Assembly: GCF_988242995.1 (NCBI RefSeq)
Contig: NZ_OZ547043.1
Length of the DNA stretch: 64,000 nt
Strand: one strand, 5' to 3'
Shown here: in pieces, positions 48,232-57,868 of the stretch
How positions within the stretch are numbered: position 1 is the stretch's first letter
Layout of the letters: each line of letters starts with the position of its first letter
The notes under the pieces: model-generated
What the model saw: the letters and a program-made list of their open reading frames with translations, nothing else
What the model was told of the DNA's origin: nothing
The model's database searches: none
Position numbers and translations under genes: made by a program

Positions 48232-50892
48232 ATGAGTCAGCGAGGACTGGAAGCACTACTGCGACCAAAATCGATTGCGGTAATTGGCGCATCGATGAAA
48301 CCCAATCGCGCAGGTTACCTGATGATGCGTAACCTGCTGGCGGGAGGCTTTAACGGACCGGTACTCCCGGTGACGCCAGCCTGGAAAGCGGTGTTGGGTG
48401 TGTTGGCCTGGCCGGATATTGCCAGCTTGCCCTTTACACCCGACCTTGCGGTTTTATGTACCAATGCCAGCCGTAATCTTGCTCTTCTGGAAGAGCTCGG
48501 CGAGAAAGGCTGTAAAACCTGCATTATTCTTTCCGCCCCGGCATCGCAACACGAAGATCTCCGCGCCTGCGCCCTGCGCCATAACATGCGCCTGCTAGGA
48601 CCAAACAGTCTGGGTTTACTGGCTCCCTGGCAAGGTCTAAATGCCAGCTTTTCACCTGTGCCGATTAAACGCGGCAAGCTGGCGTTTATTTCGCAATCGG
48701 CTGCCGTCTCCAATACCATCCTCGACTGGGCGCAACAGCGTGAGATGGGCTTTTCCTACTTTATTGCGCTCGGCGACAGCCTGGATATCGACGTTGATGA
48801 ATTGCTCGACTATCTGGCGCGCGACAGTAAAACCAGCGCCATCCTGCTCTATCTCGAACAGTTAAGCGACGCGCGACGCTTTGTTTCGGCGGCCCGTAGT
48901 GCCTCGCGCAATAAACCGATTCTGGTGATTAAAAGCGGACGTAGCCCGGCGGCTCAACGTCTGTTGAACACCACGGCAGGAATGGATCCAGCGTGGGATG
49001 CGGCTATTCAGCGTGCCGGTTTGTTGCGGGTACAGGACACCCACGAGCTGTTTTCGGCGGTGGAAACCCTTAGCCATATGCGCCCGCTGCGTGGCGACCG
49101 GTTGATGATTATCAGCAACGGTGCTGCGCCTGCCGCGCTGGCGCTGGATGCCTTATGGTCACGCAATGGCAAGCTGGCAACGCTAAGCGAAGAAACCTGC
49201 CAGAAACTGCGCGATGCACTGCCAGGACATGTGGCAATCTCTAACCCTCTCGATCTGCGCGATGACGCCAGCAGCGAGCATTATGTCAAAACGCTGGACA
49301 TTCTGCTCCACAGCCAGGATTTTGATGCGCTGATGGTTATTCATTCGCCCAGCGCCGCTGCTCCCGCAACAGAAAGCGCGCAAGTATTAATTGAAGCGGT
49401 AAAGCATCATCCCCGCAGCAAGTATGTTTCTCTGCTGACGAACTGGTGTGGCGAACATTCCTCGCAAGAGGCACGACGATTATTCAGCGAAGCCGGGCTG
49501 CCGACCTACCGTACCCCGGAAGGAACCATCACTGCTTTTATGCATATGGTGGAGTACCGGCGTAATCAGAAGCAACTACGCGAAACGCCGGCGTTGCCCA
49601 GCAATCTGACCTCCAATACTGCAGAAGCGCATCTTCTGTTGCAACAGGCGATTGCCGAAGGGGCTACGTCGCTCGATACCCATGAAGTTCAGCCCATCCT
49701 GCAAGCGTATGGCATGAACACGCTCCCCACCTGGATTGCCAGCGATAGCACCGAAGCGGTGCATATTGCCGAACAGATTGGTTATCCGGTGGCGCTGAAA
49801 TTGCGTTCGCCGGATATTCCACATAAATCGGAAGTTCAGGGCGTCATGCTCTACCTGCGTACAGCTAATGAAGTCCAGCAAGCGGCAAACGCTATTTTCG
49901 ATCGCGTAAAAATGGCCTGGCCGCAGGCGCGGATCCACGGCCTGTTGGTGCAAAGTATGGCTAACCGTGCTGGCGCTCAGGAGTTGCGGGTTGTGGTTGA
50001 GCACGATCCGGTTTTCGGGCCGTTGATCATGCTGGGCGAAGGCGGTGTGGAGTGGCGTCCTGAAGATCAAGCCGTCGTCGCACTACCGCCGCTAAACATG
50101 AACCTGGCCCGCTATCTGGTTATTCAGGGGATCAAAAGTAAAAAGATTCGTGCGCGCAGTGCGCTACGCCCATTGGATGTTGCAGGCTTGAGCCAGCTTC
50201 TGGTGCAGGTTTCCAACTTGATTGTCGATTGCCCGGAAATTCAACGTCTGGACATTCATCCTTTGCTGGCTTCTGGCAGTGAATTTACCGCGCTGGATGT
50301 CACGCTGGATATCGCGCCGTTTGAAGGCGATAACGAGAGCCGGCTGGCAGTGCGCCCTTATCCGCATCAGCTGGAAGAATGGGTAGAATTGAAAAACGGT
50401 GAACGCTGCTTGTTCCGCCCGATTTTGCCAGAAGATGAGCCACAACTTCAGCAGTTCATTTCGCGAGTCACCAAAGAAGATCTTTATTACCGCTACTTTA
50501 GCGAGATCAACGAATTTACCCATGAAGATTTAGCCAACATGACGCAGATCGACTACGATCGGGAAATGGCGTTTGTAGCAGTACGACGTATTGAACAAAC
50601 GGAAGAGATCCTCGGCGTCACGCGTGCGATCTCCGACCCTGATAACATCGATGCCGAATTTGCCGTGCTGGTTCGCTCGGATCTCAAAGGGTTAGGCTTA
50701 GGTCGACGCTTAATGGAAAAGTTGATTACCTATACGCGAGATCACGGACTGCAACGTCTGAATGGTATTACGATGCCAAACAATCGTGGCATGGTGGCGC
50801 TGGCCCGCAAGCTCGGGTTTAACGTTGATATCCAGCTCGAAGAGGGGATCGTTGGGCTTACGCTAAATCTTGCCCAGCGCGAGGAATCATGA
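48232..50892 (+). CDS. patZ: protein lysine acetyltransferase: NDP-forming acyl-CoA synthetase-like domains plus C-terminal GNAT domain
   Basis: 886-aa ORF; CoA-binding N-terminus, ATP-grasp-like middle region, C-terminal GNAT region. Confidence 0.9.
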   Translation: MSQRGLEALLRPKSIAVIGASMKPNRAGYLMMRNLLAGGFNGPVLPVTPAWKAVLGVLAWPDIASLPFTPDLAVLCTNASRNLALLEELGEKGCKTCIILSAPASQHEDLRACALRHNMRLLGPNSLGLLAPWQGLNASFSPVPIKRGKLAFISQSAAVSNTILDWAQQREMGFSYFIALGDSLDIDVDELLDYLARDSKTSAILLYLEQLSDARRFVSAARSASRNKPILVIKSGRSPAAQRLLNTTAGMDPAWDAAIQRAGLLRVQDTHELFSAVETLSHMRPLRGDRLMIISNGAAPAALALDALWSRNGKLATLSEETCQKLRDALPGHVAISNPLDLRDDASSEHYVKTLDILLHSQDFDALMVIHSPSAAAPATESAQVLIEAVKHHPRSKYVSLLTNWCGEHSSQEARRLFSEAGLPTYRTPEGTITAFMHMVEYRRNQKQLRETPALPSNLTSNTAEAHLLLQQAIAEGATSLDTHEVQPILQAYGMNTLPTWIASDSTEAVHIAEQIGYPVALKLRSPDIPHKSEVQGVMLYLRTANEVQQAANAIFDRVKMAWPQARIHGLLVQSMANRAGAQELRVVVEHDPVFGPLIMLGEGGVEWRPEDQAVVALPPLNMNLARYLVIQGIKSKKIRARSALRPLDVAGLSQLLVQVSNLIVDCPEIQRLDIHPLLASGSEFTALDVTLDIAPFEGDNESRLAVRPYPHQLEEWVELKNGERCLFRPILPEDEPQLQQFISRVTKEDLYYRYFSEINEFTHEDLANMTQIDYDREMAFVAVRRIEQTEEILGVTRAISDPDNIDAEFAVLVRSDLKGLGLGRRLMEKLITYTRDHGLQRLNGITMPNNRGMVALARKLGFNVDIQLEEGIVGLTLNLAQREES

Positions 50893-51005
50893 GTAAGGTA
50901 CTGGAAATGTTGACCACTTAATCGGGACTGGTGTTATTATTGCCCGCTTATGTCGTCTGCATTGCACAGAGGACCCTTCAATGAACAGAGAAGAAATGCA
51001 CTGTG

Positions 51006-52361
51006 ATGTTGTCAAAATTTAAGCGTAATAAACATCAACAACACCTTGCCCAACTACCCAAGATTTCTCAATCAGTTGATGATGTCGATTTCTTTTACGC
51101 TCCCGCCGACTTCCGGGAGACGCTGCTGGAAAAAATAGCCAGCGCGAAGCAGCGCATTTGCATTGTCGCCCTGTATCTCGAACAGGATGACGGTGGCAAA
51201 GGCATTCTGAACGCGTTGTATGAGGCTAAAAGGCAGCGTCCGGAACTGGATGTGCGGGTGCTGGTCGACTGGCATCGTGCACAACGTGGACGCATTGGCG
51301 CTGCGGCATCTAACACTAACGCTGACTGGTACTGCCGCATGGCGCAGGAAAATCCGGGCGTAGATGTTCCGGTTTATGGCGTGCCAATCAATACCCGTGA
51401 AGCCCTTGGTGTTCTGCACTTTAAAGGCTTTATCATCGACGATAGCGTACTTTATAGCGGTGCCAGCCTGAACGATGTTTACCTGCATCAGCACGATAAA
51501 TATCGCTACGACCGTTATCATCTGATCCGTAACCGTAAGATGTCAGACATTATGTTTGAATGGGTTACACAGAATATTATGAATGGCCGCGGCGTTAATC
51601 GTCTGGATGATGTTAATCGGCCAAAAAGCCCGGAAATCAAGAACGATATTCGTCTGTTCCGCCAGGAGCTGCGTGATGCCGCTTATCATTTCCAGGGCGA
51701 TGCCGACAACGATCAGCTTTCCGTAACGCCGCTAGTGGGGCTGGGGAAATCGAGTCTGTTGAACAAGACCATTTTCCATCTTATGCCTTGTGCCGAGCAG
51801 AAACTAACCATCTGTACGCCATACTTCAACCTGCCAGCAATCCTTGTGCGCAATATTATCCAGTTGCTGCGCGAAGGGAAAAAGGTCGAAATTATTGTTG
51901 GTGATAAAACCGCGAACGACTTCTACATTCCGGAAGATGAACCTTTCAAGATAATTGGCGCATTGCCTTATCTCTATGAGATCAATCTGCGTCGTTTCCT
52001 GAGCCGTTTGCAGTATTACGTCAATATTGACCAGCTAGTGGTTCGGTTATGGAAAGATGACGACAACACCTATCACCTGAAAGGGATGTGGGTTGATGAT
52101 AAGTGGATGTTGATCACCGGTAATAACCTGAACCCGCGCGCCTGGCGTCTGGATCTGGAAAACGCCATTTTGATCCACGATCCACAACTGGAGCTTGCGC
52201 CGCAGCGAGAGAAAGAACTGGAGCTGATCCGCGAGCATACCACCATCGTTAAGCACTATCGCGATCTGCAAAGTATTGCCGATTATCCGGTGAAGGTTCG
52301 TAAACTCATCCGCCGTTTGCGCCGTATCCGCATCGACCGATTAATTAGCCGCATCCTGTAA
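51006..52361 (+). CDS. pssA: CDP-diacylglycerol-serine O-phosphatidyltransferase (PLD-type)
   Basis: Two HxK(x)4D-like phospholipase D motifs (HFKGFIIDD and HLKGMWVDD); 451 aa from second ATG. Confidence 0.92.
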   Translation: MLSKFKRNKHQQHLAQLPKISQSVDDVDFFYAPADFRETLLEKIASAKQRICIVALYLEQDDGGKGILNALYEAKRQRPELDVRVLVDWHRAQRGRIGAAASNTNADWYCRMAQENPGVDVPVYGVPINTREALGVLHFKGFIIDDSVLYSGASLNDVYLHQHDKYRYDRYHLIRNRKMSDIMFEWVTQNIMNGRGVNRLDDVNRPKSPEIKNDIRLFRQELRDAAYHFQGDADNDQLSVTPLVGLGKSSLLNKTIFHLMPCAEQKLTICTPYFNLPAILVRNIIQLLREGKKVEIIVGDKTANDFYIPEDEPFKIIGALPYLYEINLRRFLSRLQYYVNIDQLVVRLWKDDDNTYHLKGMWVDDKWMLITGNNLNPRAWRLDLENAILIHDPQLELAPQREKELELIREHTTIVKHYRDLQSIADYPVKVRKLIRRLRRIRIDRLISRIL

Positions 52362-52365
52362 TCAC

Positions 52366-52394
52366 AACCCCGTCCTGTACGGGGTTTGTTTTTT
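52366..52394 (+). terminator. intrinsic terminator after pssA
   Basis: aaccccgt-cctgta-cggggtt followed by tgtttttt; the T-tract runs into GGAGG, the likely yfiM ribosome-binding site. Confidence 0.7.
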
Positions 52395-52406
52395 GGAGGC
52401 CACGTT

Positions 52407-52730
52407 TTGCGTATTCTTTTTGTCTGCTCGCTATTGTTACTTTCTGGATGCAGCCATATGGCTAACGATAGCTGGAGCGGGCAGGATAAAGCTCAACACT
52501 TTATCGCCTCGGCGATGCTTTCCGCCGCCGGAAATGAATATGCACAGCATCAGGGGATGAGTCGCGATCGCAGTGCCACTTTCGGGCTGATGTTCTCTGT
52601 TGGGCTGGGCGCGTCAAAAGAACTTTGGGATAGCCGCCCCGAGGGGAGCGGCTGGAGCTGGAAAGATTTTACCTGGGATGTCGCCGGTGCAACTACTGGC
52701 TATACCGTCTGGCAGTTGGCGCATAATTAA
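52407..52730 (+). CDS. yfiM: small lipoprotein
   Basis: Signal peptide with lipobox LLSGC; TTG at 52407 lies 7 nt after GGAGG; the upstream ATG at 52386 sits inside the terminator stem. Confidence 0.65.
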
Positions 52731-54025
52731 AGGCGCATCCCCTTCCCTTTGCGATGTAGCATCAAAGAAACCAGAAACGCCACCACGGCCATCAAGGTCA
52801 CATACCAGAAGAAGGCTGTTTCCATTCCTATTGATTTCAGCGACAACGCTACATACTCTGCTGAGCCACCAAATATAGCATTGGCGACCGCATATGACAG
52901 ACCAACGCCTAATGCGCGAACCTGTGCCGGGAACATCTCAGCCTTCAGTATTCCACTGATTGAAGTATAAAAACTCACTATCAGCAGGGCGCACATCACC
53001 AGACCAAAAGCGGCATAAGGCGAAGAAACGTTCTGCAATGCTGAGAGAATAGGAACGGTAAAAATGGTTGCCAGCGAACCGAAACATAACATTGAGGTAC
53101 GACGACCAATCTTATCCGACAGCGCGCCAATAAGTGGTTGAATAAGCATGAATACAAACAATGCGGCAGTCATAATGCCACTCGCCACGTTGGCATGCAT
53201 TCCCGCAGTATTTACCAGATACTTCTGCATATAAGTGGTGAAGGTATAGAAACAAAGGGAGCCCGCAGCGGTAAAACCGAGAACCATGATGAATGCACGG
53301 CGATTGCGCCATAATCCTTTCAGAGATCCAGCTTCTTTTAAAGCGCGTGTTTCTTGTTGTGAAGTTTCATCTAACTGACGACGTAACCACAACGCCACAA
53401 CAGCTAACACAGCTCCTAACGCGAAAGGAATACGCCATCCCCACTCTCTGAGTGCAGCGTCTTCCATGGTGTGTTGTAAAACCACGACAACCAGTAGAGC
53501 TAGCAATTGCCCGCCGATCAACGTCACATACTGAAATGATGCGTAAAAACCTTTGCGCCCTTCAACGGCAACTTCACTCATATAGGTGGCGCTGGTGCCA
53601 TATTCTCCGCCAACGGATAATCCCTGGAATAAACGAGCAAGAAGCAATAATGCCGGAGCCCAGGTACCGATTGTTTCGTAGCCTGGCAAACAGGCGATAA
53701 CCAGTGAGCCGAAACACATCATACACACCGATAATAGCATCGATTTTTTGCGACCATGTTTATCGGCTATGCGGCCAAATAGCCAACCGCCTATTGGGCG
53801 CATCAGAAATCCCGCAGCAAAAACACCTGCTGTTTGCAGTAGTTGAGTCGTCGTGTTCCCGGAAGGGAAGAAGATGTGGGCGAAGTAGAGTGAACAGAAC
53901 GAATAGACATAGAAATCGAACCACTCGACCAGATTACCTGAAGAGGCCCCCACAATTGCCCAAATGCGGCGACGAGTATCACTACTTGTCAGTTTGCTGT
54001 CTGCCGTTACAGTACTTTCAGCCAT
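52727..54025 (-). CDS. kgtP: alpha-ketoglutarate:H+ symporter (MFS)
   Basis: Start at [13 protein letters not shown] (432 aa); polytopic MFS-type membrane protein; track ORF extends to 54127. Confidence 0.9.
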
Positions 54026-54344
54026 GCCATTATGTCTCCTGCCGTAATCCGATGCTTTTGTCGGTCGCTGTTGTTTATTTTTTTTGGTAAAGAAAATGTT
54101 ATACATTTGTTGCGTATCATTATGCAACCTTAACCATGAATTTAGTTAGCAGGAAAATGGTTATTGAGGAGCTTAAGGATAAATTTCTGGTAAGGAGGAT
54201 GTATGGAAGTGGGCAATTTGGGGAAACCGTATCCGTTGCTGAATCTGGCGTATGTGGGGGGATAATGCGGATATCTACACTCGCCGCAACTCTTCGTAGG
54301 TCGGGTAAGACGCGCCAGCGTCGCATCCGGCATTTATTCCGCAC

Positions 54345-54557
54345 CAGCGCAAAAAGGCCATCCGTCAGGATGGCCTTCTGCTTAATTTGATGCCTGGCAG
54401 TTTATGGCGGGCGTCCTGCCCGCCACCCTCCGGGCCGTTGCTTCGCAACGTTCAAATCCGCTCCCGGCGGATTTGTCCTGGTTGGGAGAGTGTTCACCGA
54501 CAAACAACAGATAAAACAAAAGGCCCAGTCTTCCGACTGAGCCTTTTGCTTTATTTG
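54345..54557 (-). terminator. rRNA operon tandem terminators T1 and T2
   Basis: Reverse complement matches the rrnB-type T1/T2 terminator block; hairpins at about 54517-54546 (T1) and 54351-54379 (T2), each followed by a U-tract. Confidence 0.85.
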
Positions 54558-54677
54558 ATGCCTGGCAGTTCCCTACTCTCGCATGGGGAGACCCCACACT
54601 ACCATCGGCGCTACGGCGTTTCACTTCTGAGTTCGGCATGGGGTCAGGTGGGACCACCGCGCTAAGGCCGCCAGGCA
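54558..54677 (-). rRNA. rrfG: 5S ribosomal RNA
   Basis: 120 nt; reverse complement reads UGCCUGGCGGCC...CUGCCAGGCAU. Confidence 0.93.
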
Positions 54678-57675: not shown

Positions 57676-57868
57676 TCACAACCCGAAGATGTTTCTTTCG
57701 ATTCATCATCGTGTTGCGAAAATTTGAGAGACTCACGAACAACTTTCGTTGTTCAGTGTTTCAATTTTCAGCTTGATCCAGATTTTTAAAGAGCAAATAT
57801 CTCAAACATCACCCGAAGATGAGTTTTGAGATATTAAGGCAGGTGACTTTCACTCACAAACCAGCAAG

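What the first reader, a model, noticed from the sequence alone, without database searches (positions are those of the whole stretch)
54381..54504. Duplicate of the 5S 3'-terminal sequence inside the T1-T2 terminator spacer
The motif TTGATGCCTGGCAGTT that forms the 3' end of the 5S gene (54556-54570) recurs at 54386-54401, immediately after the T2 hairpin and about 170 bp from the real 5S end. It looks like a vestige of an ancestral duplicated or deleted 5S-terminator unit.
Basis: seen in the sequence. Interest (0 to 1): 0.3.

Follow-up and report, generated by a model that had tools for sequence, protein, structure and literature searches.

The report
Known repeat tag after 5S rRNA
The second copy of the 5S rRNA 3' end is real, but it is the already described end-tag of a small conserved RNA element (a tRNA-linked repeat, like E. 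coli rrB) that lies between the two terminators of some rRNA operons, not the remains of a second 5S gene.

Summary
An exact 18-nt repeat (ATTTGATGCCTGGCAGTT on the + strand) lies at 54385-54402 and 54553-54570, 168 nt apart, and extends to 30 nt at 93% identity. The rRNA operon is on the minus strand, so the copy precedes T2 just as the 5S end precedes T1.

It is a known feature. Stenum et al. 2021 (PMC8144298) show this same 18-bp repeat in E. coli rrnA, rrnB and rrnD. [quoted passage not shown]

- The sequence between T1 and the copy has no similarity to 5S (z = -1.1).
- It is about 96% identical to K-12 rrA/rrB/rrF and shares a core with the tyrT TLRs (z = 9.3).
- It folds into stem-loops supported by covariation in 20 sequences from 14 genus-level groups.
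- The tag follows the local 5S end, including variants in Citrobacter, E. coli rrnD and Idiomarina.

The modest new points: this copy sits in rrnG, which lacks it in K-12. An otherwise identical strain lacks exactly 168 bp. Arrays of 0 to about 2.3 units occur.

Verdict: already known, low interest.

The parts
54558..54677 (-). 5S rRNA gene of the rrnG operon (120 nt). It differs from K-12 rrfG at one position, G13U.
   Evidence: Rfam RF00001 match at 93.2 bits. Ends read from the sequence. Comparison with the K-12 5S genes.
54553..54570 (-). Repeat copy 1. RNA strand AACUGCCAGGCAU (5S nucleotides 108-120, the 3' strand of helix I) plus the flank CAAAU, which holds the RNase E site that frees the 5S 3' end.
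   Evidence: The RNase E site assignment is from PMC8144298.
54511..54554 (-). Terminator T1: an extended A/U-flanked hairpin followed by a U run.
   Evidence: Terminator scan, 20 pairs with a 4-nt loop. It differs from the T1 of O157:H7 rrnD at 1 position. In K-12 rrnB, T1 stops 87% of transcripts (Orosz 1991, as cited in PMC8144298).
54403..54510 (-). TLR body (rrB/rrF-type sRNA core). It holds stem-loops at 54453-54475, 54436-54450, 54425-54435 and 54406-54424, three of them with a GGA motif in the loop.
   Evidence: About 96% identical (5-6 differences in 108 nt) to K-12 rrA/rrB/rrF. 54403-54520 is 100% identical to the rrnD allele of many E. coli. Core shared with the tyrT TLRs, z = 9.3. 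Weak full-length Rfam RtT match, 24 bits against a threshold of 45. 12 of 25 pairs show compensatory changes, and 96.6% of cells are paired against 83% in shuffles.
54385..54402 (-). Repeat copy 2, the TLR 3' tag. 54390-54402 is identical to the last 13 nt of 5S, and 54385-54389 is CAAAU. This is the object of the finding.
   Evidence: It is the family hallmark described in PMC8144298. It follows the local 5S end in other operons and species.
54346..54377 (-). Terminator T2: a 10-bp hairpin (AAGGCCAUCC / GGAUGGCCUU, 4-nt loop) followed by a U run.
   Evidence: Inverted repeat I2, 100% complementary. The hairpin is identical to that of K-12 rrnB/rrnA T2. In K-12 rrnB, T2 stops about 100% of transcripts (cited).
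54382..54554 (-). Predicted 173-nt primary processed RNA, the equivalent of the long form of RrB. It starts 3 nt after the 5S end and stops 3 nt after the 18-nt repeat.
   Evidence: Inferred by transferring the S1-mapped ends of K-12 RrB onto the alignment. Not measured for this strain.
54299..54345 (.). REP-type palindromic element just downstream of T2. It is context, not part of the TLR.
   Evidence: Weak naRNA4 (REP-derived) matches on both strands, 25.5 and 20.7 bits, below the threshold of 59.5. The same element follows T2 in K-12 rrnA.

Best explanation
The second copy is the 3' tag of a tRNA-linked repeat (TLR) of the rrA/rrB/rrF type. This one sits in the rrnG operon of an E. coli strain.

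The unit is 168 bp: an RNase E site, the T1 hairpin, a 108-nt structured body, and the last 13 nt of 5S. It lies between the true 5S end and T2, so the 18-nt sequence AACUGCCAGGCAUCAAAU flanks it as a direct repeat.

Shown here:
- The anatomy of the unit.
- Homology of the body to other TLRs and not to 5S.
- Conserved RNA structure in the body.
- A tag that follows the local 5S 3' end.
- Units that are gained, lost and amplified in whole periods.

Taken from published work on K-12 rrnB:
- About 13% of transcripts read through T1.
- The read-through RNA is cut 3 nt after the 5S end and 3 nt after the repeat, giving a 173-nt RNA.
- That RNA is trimmed to about 115 nt, is short-lived, and binds Hfq and CsrA.

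Inferred:
- The tag with its A/U-rich flank in front of a hairpin recreates the context of the 5S 3' RNase E site, so the same enzyme frees the 3' end of the element.
- Identity of the two copies is kept by unequal crossing-over or gene conversion between them, probably helped by selection for processing.
For: Anatomy:
-.

Literature:
- PMC8144298 describes the same 18-bp repeat, spaced 150 bp apart, in rrnA/B/D.
- It states the TLR hallmark and the mapped RNA ends, and proposes RNase E recognition.

The body is not 5S:
- z = -1.1 against 5S, and no Rfam 5S match.

The body is a TLR:
- About 96% identical to K-12 rrA/rrB/rrF.
- 100% identical to the O157:H7 rrnD allele.
- Core shared with the tyrT TLRs: score 40 against 17.7 +/- 2.4, 0 of 1000 shuffles (alignment).
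- Full-length weak RtT match.

The hallmark holds at the founding locus:
- The 19-nt tRNA-Tyr 3' end occurs 6 times at tyrT, in 2 genes and at 4 TLR ends.

Structure:
- 25 pairs, 12 with compensatory changes.
- 96.6% of cells paired against 83.0 +/- 1.0 in shuffles (0 of 500); slid controls gave 30-47%.

The tag tracks the local 5S end:
- 13 of 13 nt identical in 31 of 37 loci.
- The GACAU variant appears in both copies in K-12 and O157 rrnD, Citrobacter L011 and L019.
- The Idiomarina 5S end ACACCGCCAGACUUCAAAU is repeated in its own TLR.

Whole-unit dynamics:
- K-12 and CFSAN018748 rrnG lack the unit.
- Strain N3 lacks exactly 168 bp in a flank that is otherwise 100% identical for about 220 nt.
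- About 2.3 tandem units occur in CwR94 and about 1.5 in Acerihabitans.
Against: - The Rfam RtT model scores this element at only 24 bits against a threshold of 45. It did not report the K-12 rr-type copies in a larger search. The link to tRNA-type TLRs therefore rests on a core of about 30 nt, the shared architecture and the literature.
- No expression or processing data exist for this strain or for an rrnG copy.
- The element is dispensable. 1482 of 5426 complete E. coli genomes gave no megablast match to the body, and deleting all three copies in K-12 gave only modest phenotypes.
- The tag can be lost: a 29-nt deletion in Kluyvera L027, and decay in Pseudescherichia L015.
- The mapped 3' end of RrB lies 5 nt beyond the position equivalent to the 5S RNase E cut (arithmetic). 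Use of the same site is therefore not proven.
- A helix between the tag and the 5' end of the element appears in most MFE folds, but it is no better than shuffled controls, with z from -1.8 to +1.2.
Confidence: 0.88

Rival explanations
1. Vestigial second 5S gene. An ancestral tandem pair of 5S-plus-terminator units decayed, leaving only the last nucleotides of the second 5S.
For: The period of 168 nt equals 120 (5S) plus 48 (5S end to the end of the T1 region), so the copy sits where a second 5S would end. Operons with two 5S genes exist, such as rrnD.
Against: - In-register identity outside the tag is 30%, and local similarity is below the shuffle mean, z = -1.1.
- There is no Rfam 5S match at E <= 10.
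- The interval is a conserved structured RNA, homologous to elements found after tRNA genes.
- rrnD carries both a complete second 5S gene and the element after it, and the tag matches rrfF rather than rrfD.
- The tag is conserved and co-varies with the local 5S end rather than decaying.
Confidence: 0.03
2. Neutral by-product. The tag has no function. It is simply the junction of a tandem duplication whose boundary fell 13 nt inside 5S, and it is kept identical only by unequal crossing-over or gene conversion between the copies and between operons.
For: - Copy number varies in whole units, from 0 to about 2.3.
- T1 and T2 are nearly identical in some lineages.
- The same body allele is found in rrnD and rrnG.
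- The tag is lost or decayed in 2 of 37 loci.
- The element is absent from many E. coli genomes.
Against: - The tag and its CAAAU flank stay intact across 14 genus-level groups, while T1, T2 and parts of the body diverge.
- The same architecture, with a tag that ends the element, holds for tRNA-linked members.
- The mapped 3' end of RrB lies 3 nt after the repeat.
Confidence: 0.25
3. Insertion footprint. The 150 bp between the repeats (T1 plus body) is a small non-autonomous element that inserts at the 3' ends of stable-RNA genes. The 18-nt direct repeat is a target-site duplication.
For: - Homologous bodies carry locus-specific tags: tRNA-Tyr at tyrT, 5S here, and a divergent 5S end in Idiomarina.
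- Filled and empty sites differ by exactly one unit, with one repeat copy left behind.
- Both the window-type flank and the K-12-type flank exist in filled and empty forms.
Against: - No enzyme or mechanism is known that makes 13-25-nt duplications at such sites.
- Repeat length varies from 13 to 30 nt and can include the whole terminator, which fits recombination better than a fixed staggered cut.
- Gain at rrnG can be explained by conversion from another rrn operon of the same cell that carries the same body allele with a GGCAU tag.
- Precise loss is what recombination between direct repeats would produce.
Confidence: 0.08
4. Chance recurrence of a short motif.
For: None.
Against: 18 of 18 nt are exact, against an expectation of 0.03 matches even with 3 mismatches allowed. 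The same arrangement recurs in 36 loci from other genomes.
Confidence: 0

Closest known systems
rrA, rrB and rrF sRNA genes between T1 and T2 of E. coli K-12 rrnA, rrnB and rrnD (Stenum et al. 2021, PMC8144298). This is the widely used 'rrnB T1T2' terminator cassette.
   Same: The architecture is the same: 5S, T1, structured body, 18-nt copy of the 5S end, T2. The spacing is the same (168 start to start). The body is about 96% identical and 100% identical to the rrF allele of many E. coli strains.
   Different: It sits in rrnG, which has no such element in K-12. Its body is the rrnD-type allele, but its tag is the GGCAU form that matches rrfG. Expression has not been tested.
tyrT/tyrV 178-bp repeats: RtT RNA (rttR), Rfam RF00391, the founding tRNA-linked repeats (Egan and Landy 1978; Rudd 1999, as cited).
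   Same: It lies downstream of a stable-RNA gene on the same strand. Each unit ends in 18-19 nt identical to the 3' end of that gene. The core GCAACGGCCCGNAGGGUG plus a following stem-loop is shared. Tandem amplification occurs in both.
   Different: The tag is the 5S end, not a tRNA end. The 5' third is a terminator hairpin. It scores only 24 bits on RF00391, against a threshold of 45 and 133-137 bits for the tyrT copies.
Second 5S gene of rrnD (rrfD-thrV-rrfF).
   Same: A second occurrence of 5S sequence distal to the first 5S in one operon.
   Different: rrfF is a complete 120-nt gene that scores 90 bits on RF00001. Here only 13 nt of 5S are present, and the rest is unrelated.
3'ETS-leuZ and other sRNAs cut out of stable-RNA precursors by RNase E (cited).
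   Same: A small RNA released from spacer or trailer sequence of a tRNA or rRNA transcript, so its level follows transcription of the stable RNA.
   Different: 3'ETS-leuZ has no copy of the upstream gene's 3' end and is not a repeat family. Its partners are RyhB and RybB, not CsrA.
Partial tRNA-gene duplications at the ends of integrated elements (attL/attR). This comparison rests on my own background knowledge.
   Same: A direct repeat of the 3' part of a stable-RNA gene flanks an inserted segment.
   Different: There is no integrase or element-sized insert here. The unit is 150 bp, is transcribed with the operon, and is amplified in tandem.

Membership tests
tRNA-linked repeats (TLR), rr-type (rrA/rrB/rrF) | Lies immediately downstream of a tRNA or rRNA gene, on the same strand, within the operon. 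| tested here: met
   The element starts 4 nt after the 5S 3' end on the minus strand, distal to 16S, tRNA-Glu, 23S and 5S.
tRNA-linked repeats (TLR), rr-type (rrA/rrB/rrF) | 18-19 bp at its 3' end are identical to the 3' end of the upstream stable-RNA gene. | tested here: met
   18 of 18 nt are exact, at 54385-54402 against 54553-54570. The definition comes from PMC8144298.
tRNA-linked repeats (TLR), rr-type (rrA/rrB/rrF) | Sequence homology of the body to recognised members. | tested here: met
   About 96% identical to K-12 rrA/rrB/rrF. 100% identical to the rrnD copy of O157:H7.
tRNA-linked repeats (TLR), rr-type (rrA/rrB/rrF) | Bracketed by two terminators, T1 and T2. | tested here: met
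   T1 was found by the terminator scan. T2 is a perfect 10-bp hairpin with a U run, and the hairpin is identical to that of K-12 rrnB T2. Termination itself was not measured.
tRNA-linked repeats (TLR), rr-type (rrA/rrB/rrF) | Conserved stem-loops (numbers 2-4 of Stenum et al.) with GGA motifs. | tested here: met
   The consensus fold of 20 sequences has 12 covarying pairs, and both controls are clearly exceeded. GGA lies in the loops GGGAG (54462-54466), GGA (54429-54431) and AGGAC (54413-54417), read.
tRNA-linked repeats (TLR), rr-type (rrA/rrB/rrF) | Transcribed by read-through of T1, processed to RNAs of about 173 and 115 nt, and binds Hfq and CsrA. | not testable with these tools
   Known only for K-12 rrnA/B/D.
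Rfam RF00391 (RtT RNA) | Covariance-model score at or above the gathering threshold of 45 bits. | tested here: not met
   24.0 bits, E = 0.016, full-length match to model positions 1-130. The tyrT copies score 133-137 bits. It is a relative of the family as modelled, not a member.
5S rRNA gene or pseudogene (Rfam RF00001) | Similarity to 5S beyond the terminal helix strand. | tested here: not met
   No RF00001 match in 54200-54557 at E <= 10. Local alignment of the body against 5S nucleotides 1-102 gives z = -1.1.
tRNA gene or pseudogene | Cloverleaf detectable on either strand. | tested here: not met
   ARAGORN finds only tRNA-Glu in the window. No RF00005 match in the spacer at E <= 10.

The most novel reading that the evidence does not exclude
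TLR units are not just local tandem duplications. They are a cryptic, non-autonomous family that colonises the 3' ends of stable-RNA genes, behind tRNA-Tyr and other tRNAs, and behind 5S rRNA from Enterobacterales to Idiomarina. On arrival each unit copies 13-25 nt of its host gene's 3' end, so the direct repeat is an insertion footprint of a mechanism not yet known.
Probability: 0.08. Interest if true: 0.6.

Novelty: already known. Interest (0 to 1): 0.12.

Why it matters
As a discovery it matters little. The repeat and the element it belongs to are published, and the sequence sits in thousands of cloning vectors as the rrnB T1T2 cassette.

Three points have some practical value:
- This element is not annotated in RefSeq, and Rfam's RtT model misses it at the gathering threshold. 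Scans will therefore keep rediscovering it.
- Its presence is strain- and operon-specific and changes in whole 168-bp units. This matters for rrn-operon typing, and for anyone who assumes that all E. coli make RrA, RrB and RrF.
- How the tags come to match the host gene, in tRNA and rRNA operons alike, is still unexplained. That remains a small open question about how stable-RNA operons evolve.

Tried and rejected
- **5S-derived body.** I compared the 120 nt before the copy with 5S in register (30% identity outside the tag), ran Smith-Waterman against dinucleotide shuffles on both strands (z = -1.1 and -1.2), and ran cmscan at E <= 10. All were negative.
- **tRNA remnant.** The body contains GGATTTGAAC, which resembles an antisense T-arm. 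ARAGORN and Rfam find nothing, so I dropped this.
- **A 5S-like closing helix** between the tag and the 5' end of the element (UGUUUGUCGGU), which is also an extension of the T1 hairpin (I1). It appears in the MFE fold of the window and of most loci. But duplex energies are no better than shuffled 5' segments (z from -1.8 to +1.2). It is absent from the RNAalifold consensus and broken in CwR94. Left as inconclusive.
- **The whole-transcript MFE** pairs the 5S 5' strand with the distal tag. This is a thermodynamic curiosity with no supporting evidence.
- **An E. coli genome with exactly this rrnG arrangement.** None was found among 5426 complete genomes. Only the empty form of the same flank (N3) and a filled form on the K-12-type flank (strain T2) turned up.
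- **Later literature on TLRs or RrB.** Only PMC8144298 and an editorial were found. The mobilome preprint that mentions rttR has nothing on origin. Rudd 1999, Egan and Landy 1978 and Brosius 1981 are not in the library and are cited only through PMC8144298.
- **The species alignment in the paper's supplement** is an image and could not be read, so I made my own scan.

Full report
**1. What is in the window**

The region is the distal end of an rRNA operon on the minus strand.
- 16S lies at 59571-58030, tRNA-Glu at 57944-57869, 23S at 57675-54771, and 5S at 54677-54558 (5S ends read).
- The gene order around it is glmY, ohsC, rncO, rseC antisense, then kgtP next to the 5S end and ryfD beyond the 16S.
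- 50000-53000 is 100% identical to several E. coli genomes. Together these identify it as E. coli rrnG.
- Read on the transcribed strand, the 5S is followed by a long A/U-flanked hairpin with a U run (T1, 54554-54511). About 108 nt of G+C-rich sequence come next.
- Then comes the repeated motif, then a perfect 10-bp hairpin with a U run (T2, 54377-54354), and then a REP-type palindrome.

**2. The observation**

- The 18-mer ATTTGATGCCTGGCAGTT (+ strand) occurs exactly twice, at 54385-54402 and 54553-54570. There are no further matches at up to 3 mismatches. The expectation is 0.03, and 0 of 100 shuffles reached two.
- In register, the similarity runs for 30 nt at 93% with a spacing of 168.
- Thirteen of the 18 nt are the last nucleotides of mature 5S (108-120, the 3' strand of helix I). 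The other five (CAAAU) are the flank.
Its phrase 'after the T2 hairpin' holds only on the + strand. In the RNA the copy precedes T2, exactly as the real 5S end precedes T1.

**3. Is the spacer a decayed 5S?**

The period is suggestive, since 168 = 120 + 48. A second 5S gene plus its terminator would fit. It is nevertheless not a decayed 5S.
- The 120 nt that end with the copy, aligned in register with 5S, share 30% identity outside the tag.
- Local alignment of the 107-nt body with 5S nucleotides 1-102 scores 12, against 14.4 +/- 2.2 for dinucleotide shuffles (z = -1.1). The reverse strand gives the same result.
- A permissive Rfam scan of 54200-54557 (E <= 10) gives no 5S and no tRNA match.

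**4. What the spacer is**

- The same permissive scan gave a full-length but weak match to Rfam RtT (RF00391): model positions 1-130, 24 bits, threshold 45, E = 0.016.
- RtT is the 178-bp repeat behind tyrT. In K-12 that locus has four copies scoring 133-137 bits.
- The 19-nt 3' end of tRNA-Tyr occurs there six times: in the two genes and at the end of each of the four repeat units.
- The window's body shares a core with those units (GAACGUUGC..GCAACGGCCCGNAGGGUG). The score is 40 against 17.7 +/- 2.4, z = 9.3, with 0 of 1000 shuffles reaching it. The signal is on the transcribed strand only (alignment).

**5. It is published**

Stenum et al. 2021 (PMC8144298) treat exactly this sequence in K-12 rrnA, rrnB and rrnD.
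- The elements (rrA, rrB, rrF) belong to the tRNA-linked repeats, 22 copies at ten K-12 loci according to Rudd 1999. Their 'striking feature' is that 18-19 bp of the 3' end equals the 3' end of the upstream tRNA or rRNA gene.
- The 173-nt RNA starts 3 nt after the 5S end, at the known RNase E site, and ends 3 nt after the repeat.
- T1 stops 87% of transcripts and T2 about 100%.
- The authors propose that the repeat is what RNase E recognises.

The window's element is about 96% identical to the three K-12 copies. Its body (54403-54520) is 100% identical to the rrnD copy of O157:H7 and many other strains. The identification is secure.

**6. Tests that go beyond the paper**

(a) Structure.
- I scanned one genome per species for a 5S anchor followed, at the right distance, by CGGCCCGNAGGG. 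The scan did not presuppose the tag. It returned 36 loci from 14 genus-level groups.
- A consensus fold of 20 distinct sequences gives 25 pairs, 12 of them with compensatory double changes.
- 96.6% of cells are paired, against 83.0 +/- 1.0% in shuffles (0 of 500) and 30-47% when partners are slid.
- The body is a selected RNA, not decaying DNA.

(b) The tag follows the local 5S end.
- It is identical over all 13 5S nucleotides in 31 of 37 loci.
- Where the 5S end differs, the tag differs in the same way. GCCAGACAU appears in both copies in K-12 and O157:H7 rrnD, where it matches rrfF and not rrfD. It also appears in both copies in Citrobacter L011 and L019.
- In Idiomarina zobellii the 5S end is quite different (ACACCGCCAGACUUCAAAU), and it is repeated over 18-19 nt exact, or 25 nt allowing for the flanking AGUAGG.

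(c) The unit is gained, lost and amplified whole.
- K-12 and CFSAN018748 rrnG go straight from 5S to a T2-type hairpin.
- Strain N3 has a flank that is 100% identical to the window for about 220 nt, but lacks exactly 168 bp and keeps one copy of the repeat.
- Strain T2 (soil) has the K-12-type flank with a unit.
- Enterobacterales sp. CwR94 has two full units plus a third tag and terminator. Acerihabitans has about 1.5 units.
- In these lineages, and in Erwinia piriflorinigrans, T1 and T2 are 91-96% identical, so the duplicated segment includes the whole terminator.
- In E. coli, copies per genome range from none (1482 of 5426 genomes without a match) to nine.

(d) Exceptions.
- The tag is deleted in Kluyvera L027.
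- It has decayed, and T2 is absent, in Pseudescherichia L015.

**7. How it most likely works**

- Shown: the anatomy, the family, the selected structure, the co-variation of the tag, and whole-unit turnover.
- From the literature: read-through of T1, the mapped ends, and Hfq and CsrA binding.
- Inferred, step 1: the tag, its A/U-rich flank and a downstream hairpin copy the context of the RNase E site at the 5S 3' end, so the same enzyme frees the element. From my own recollection, the flank CAA|AUU also fits the reported RN|WUU preference of RNase E.
- Inferred, step 2: the two copies stay identical because they recombine, through unequal exchange or conversion, as the whole-period changes show. 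Selection probably helps as well.
- I could not separate selection from conversion. The neutral-junction rival therefore keeps appreciable weight.
- A helix between the tag and the 5' end of the element would mimic 5S helix I. It appears in most MFE folds but is not better than chance.

**8. Verdict**

A duplication did include the 5S end and the terminator.
- The feature is already known.
- The only new points are minor: the rrnG location and its precise presence/absence polymorphism, tandem arrays behind 5S, an Idiomarina relative outside Enterobacterales, and the fact that Rfam and RefSeq do not annotate the element.
- How TLR tags come to match their host genes remains unexplained. An insertion-footprint mechanism is not excluded, but I rate it unlikely.

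Noticed in passing
L022 8490-8643 (-) and L023 108-261 (+), Idiomarina zobellii: An rr-type TLR sits behind the 5S gene in Idiomarina, a genus that as far as I recall belongs to Alteromonadales (I did not look it up). That is outside the Enterobacterales range reported in PMC8144298. It has the same three stem-loops, with compensatory changes. Its tag copies the divergent local 5S end (ACACCGCCAGACTTCAAAT) and reaches further into 5S (AGTAGG).
   Followed up: partly
L043 from 226 (+) and L012 from 296 (+): Tandem arrays lie behind the 5S gene. Enterobacterales sp. CwR94 has two full 170-bp units plus a third tag and terminator, with three nearly identical terminators. Acerihabitans arboris has about 1.5 units. 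This parallels the 3.14 repeats at tyrT.
   Followed up: yes
window 54385-54557, compared with L047 (strain N3), L048 (strain T2), L001 (K-12) and L046 (CFSAN018748): The rrnG copy is polymorphic within E. coli. Both the window-type flank and the K-12-type flank exist with and without the 168-bp unit. No complete genome in the collection has the window's exact arrangement, although 3 kb nearby are 100% identical to several strains.
   Followed up: yes
window 54403-54520, searched against E. coli genomes: 1482 of 5426 complete E. coli genomes give no megablast match to the rr-type TLR body. The rest have 1-9 copies, with a median of 2. The element is unannotated in RefSeq ('none' under the matches).
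   Followed up: partly
window 54340-54677 (-): The MFE fold of the whole 5S-T1-TLR-T2 RNA pairs the 5S 5' strand with the distal tag. The true 5S 3' end then extends the T1 hairpin into an imperfect helix of about 35 bp (also inverted repeat I1). This is a prediction only. Co-transcriptional folding would favour the normal helix I.
   Followed up: partly
window 54665 (5S position 13): The window's 5S gene has U instead of G at position 13. This differs from all eight K-12 5S genes, but strain T2's rrnG 5S shares it. Strain N3, which has an identical downstream flank, has G.
   Followed up: no
window 54299-54382: A REP-type palindrome lies directly after T2, with weak naRNA4 matches on both strands (25.5 and 20.7 bits, threshold 59.5). 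The same element follows T2 in K-12 rrnA.
   Followed up: no
window 54203-54265 (+): A 20-codon ORF (MEVGNLGKPYPLLNLAYVGG) lies at the position of K-12 yfiS (b4783), between kgtP and the 5S end and antisense to the rrn trailer.
   Followed up: no
L027 (Kluyvera genomosp. 3) and L015 (Pseudescherichia vulneris): Two loci have an intact TLR body but no intact tag. One has a 29-nt deletion that removes the 3' arm of the last stem-loop and most of the tag. In the other the tag has decayed and no T2 hairpin follows. The tag is therefore not indispensable.
   Followed up: partly
window 57683-57791 (-): Rfam StyR-44 matches at 124.9 bits in the tRNA-Glu to 23S spacer. This is a known rrn-spacer RNA family and is not related to the finding.
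   Followed up: no
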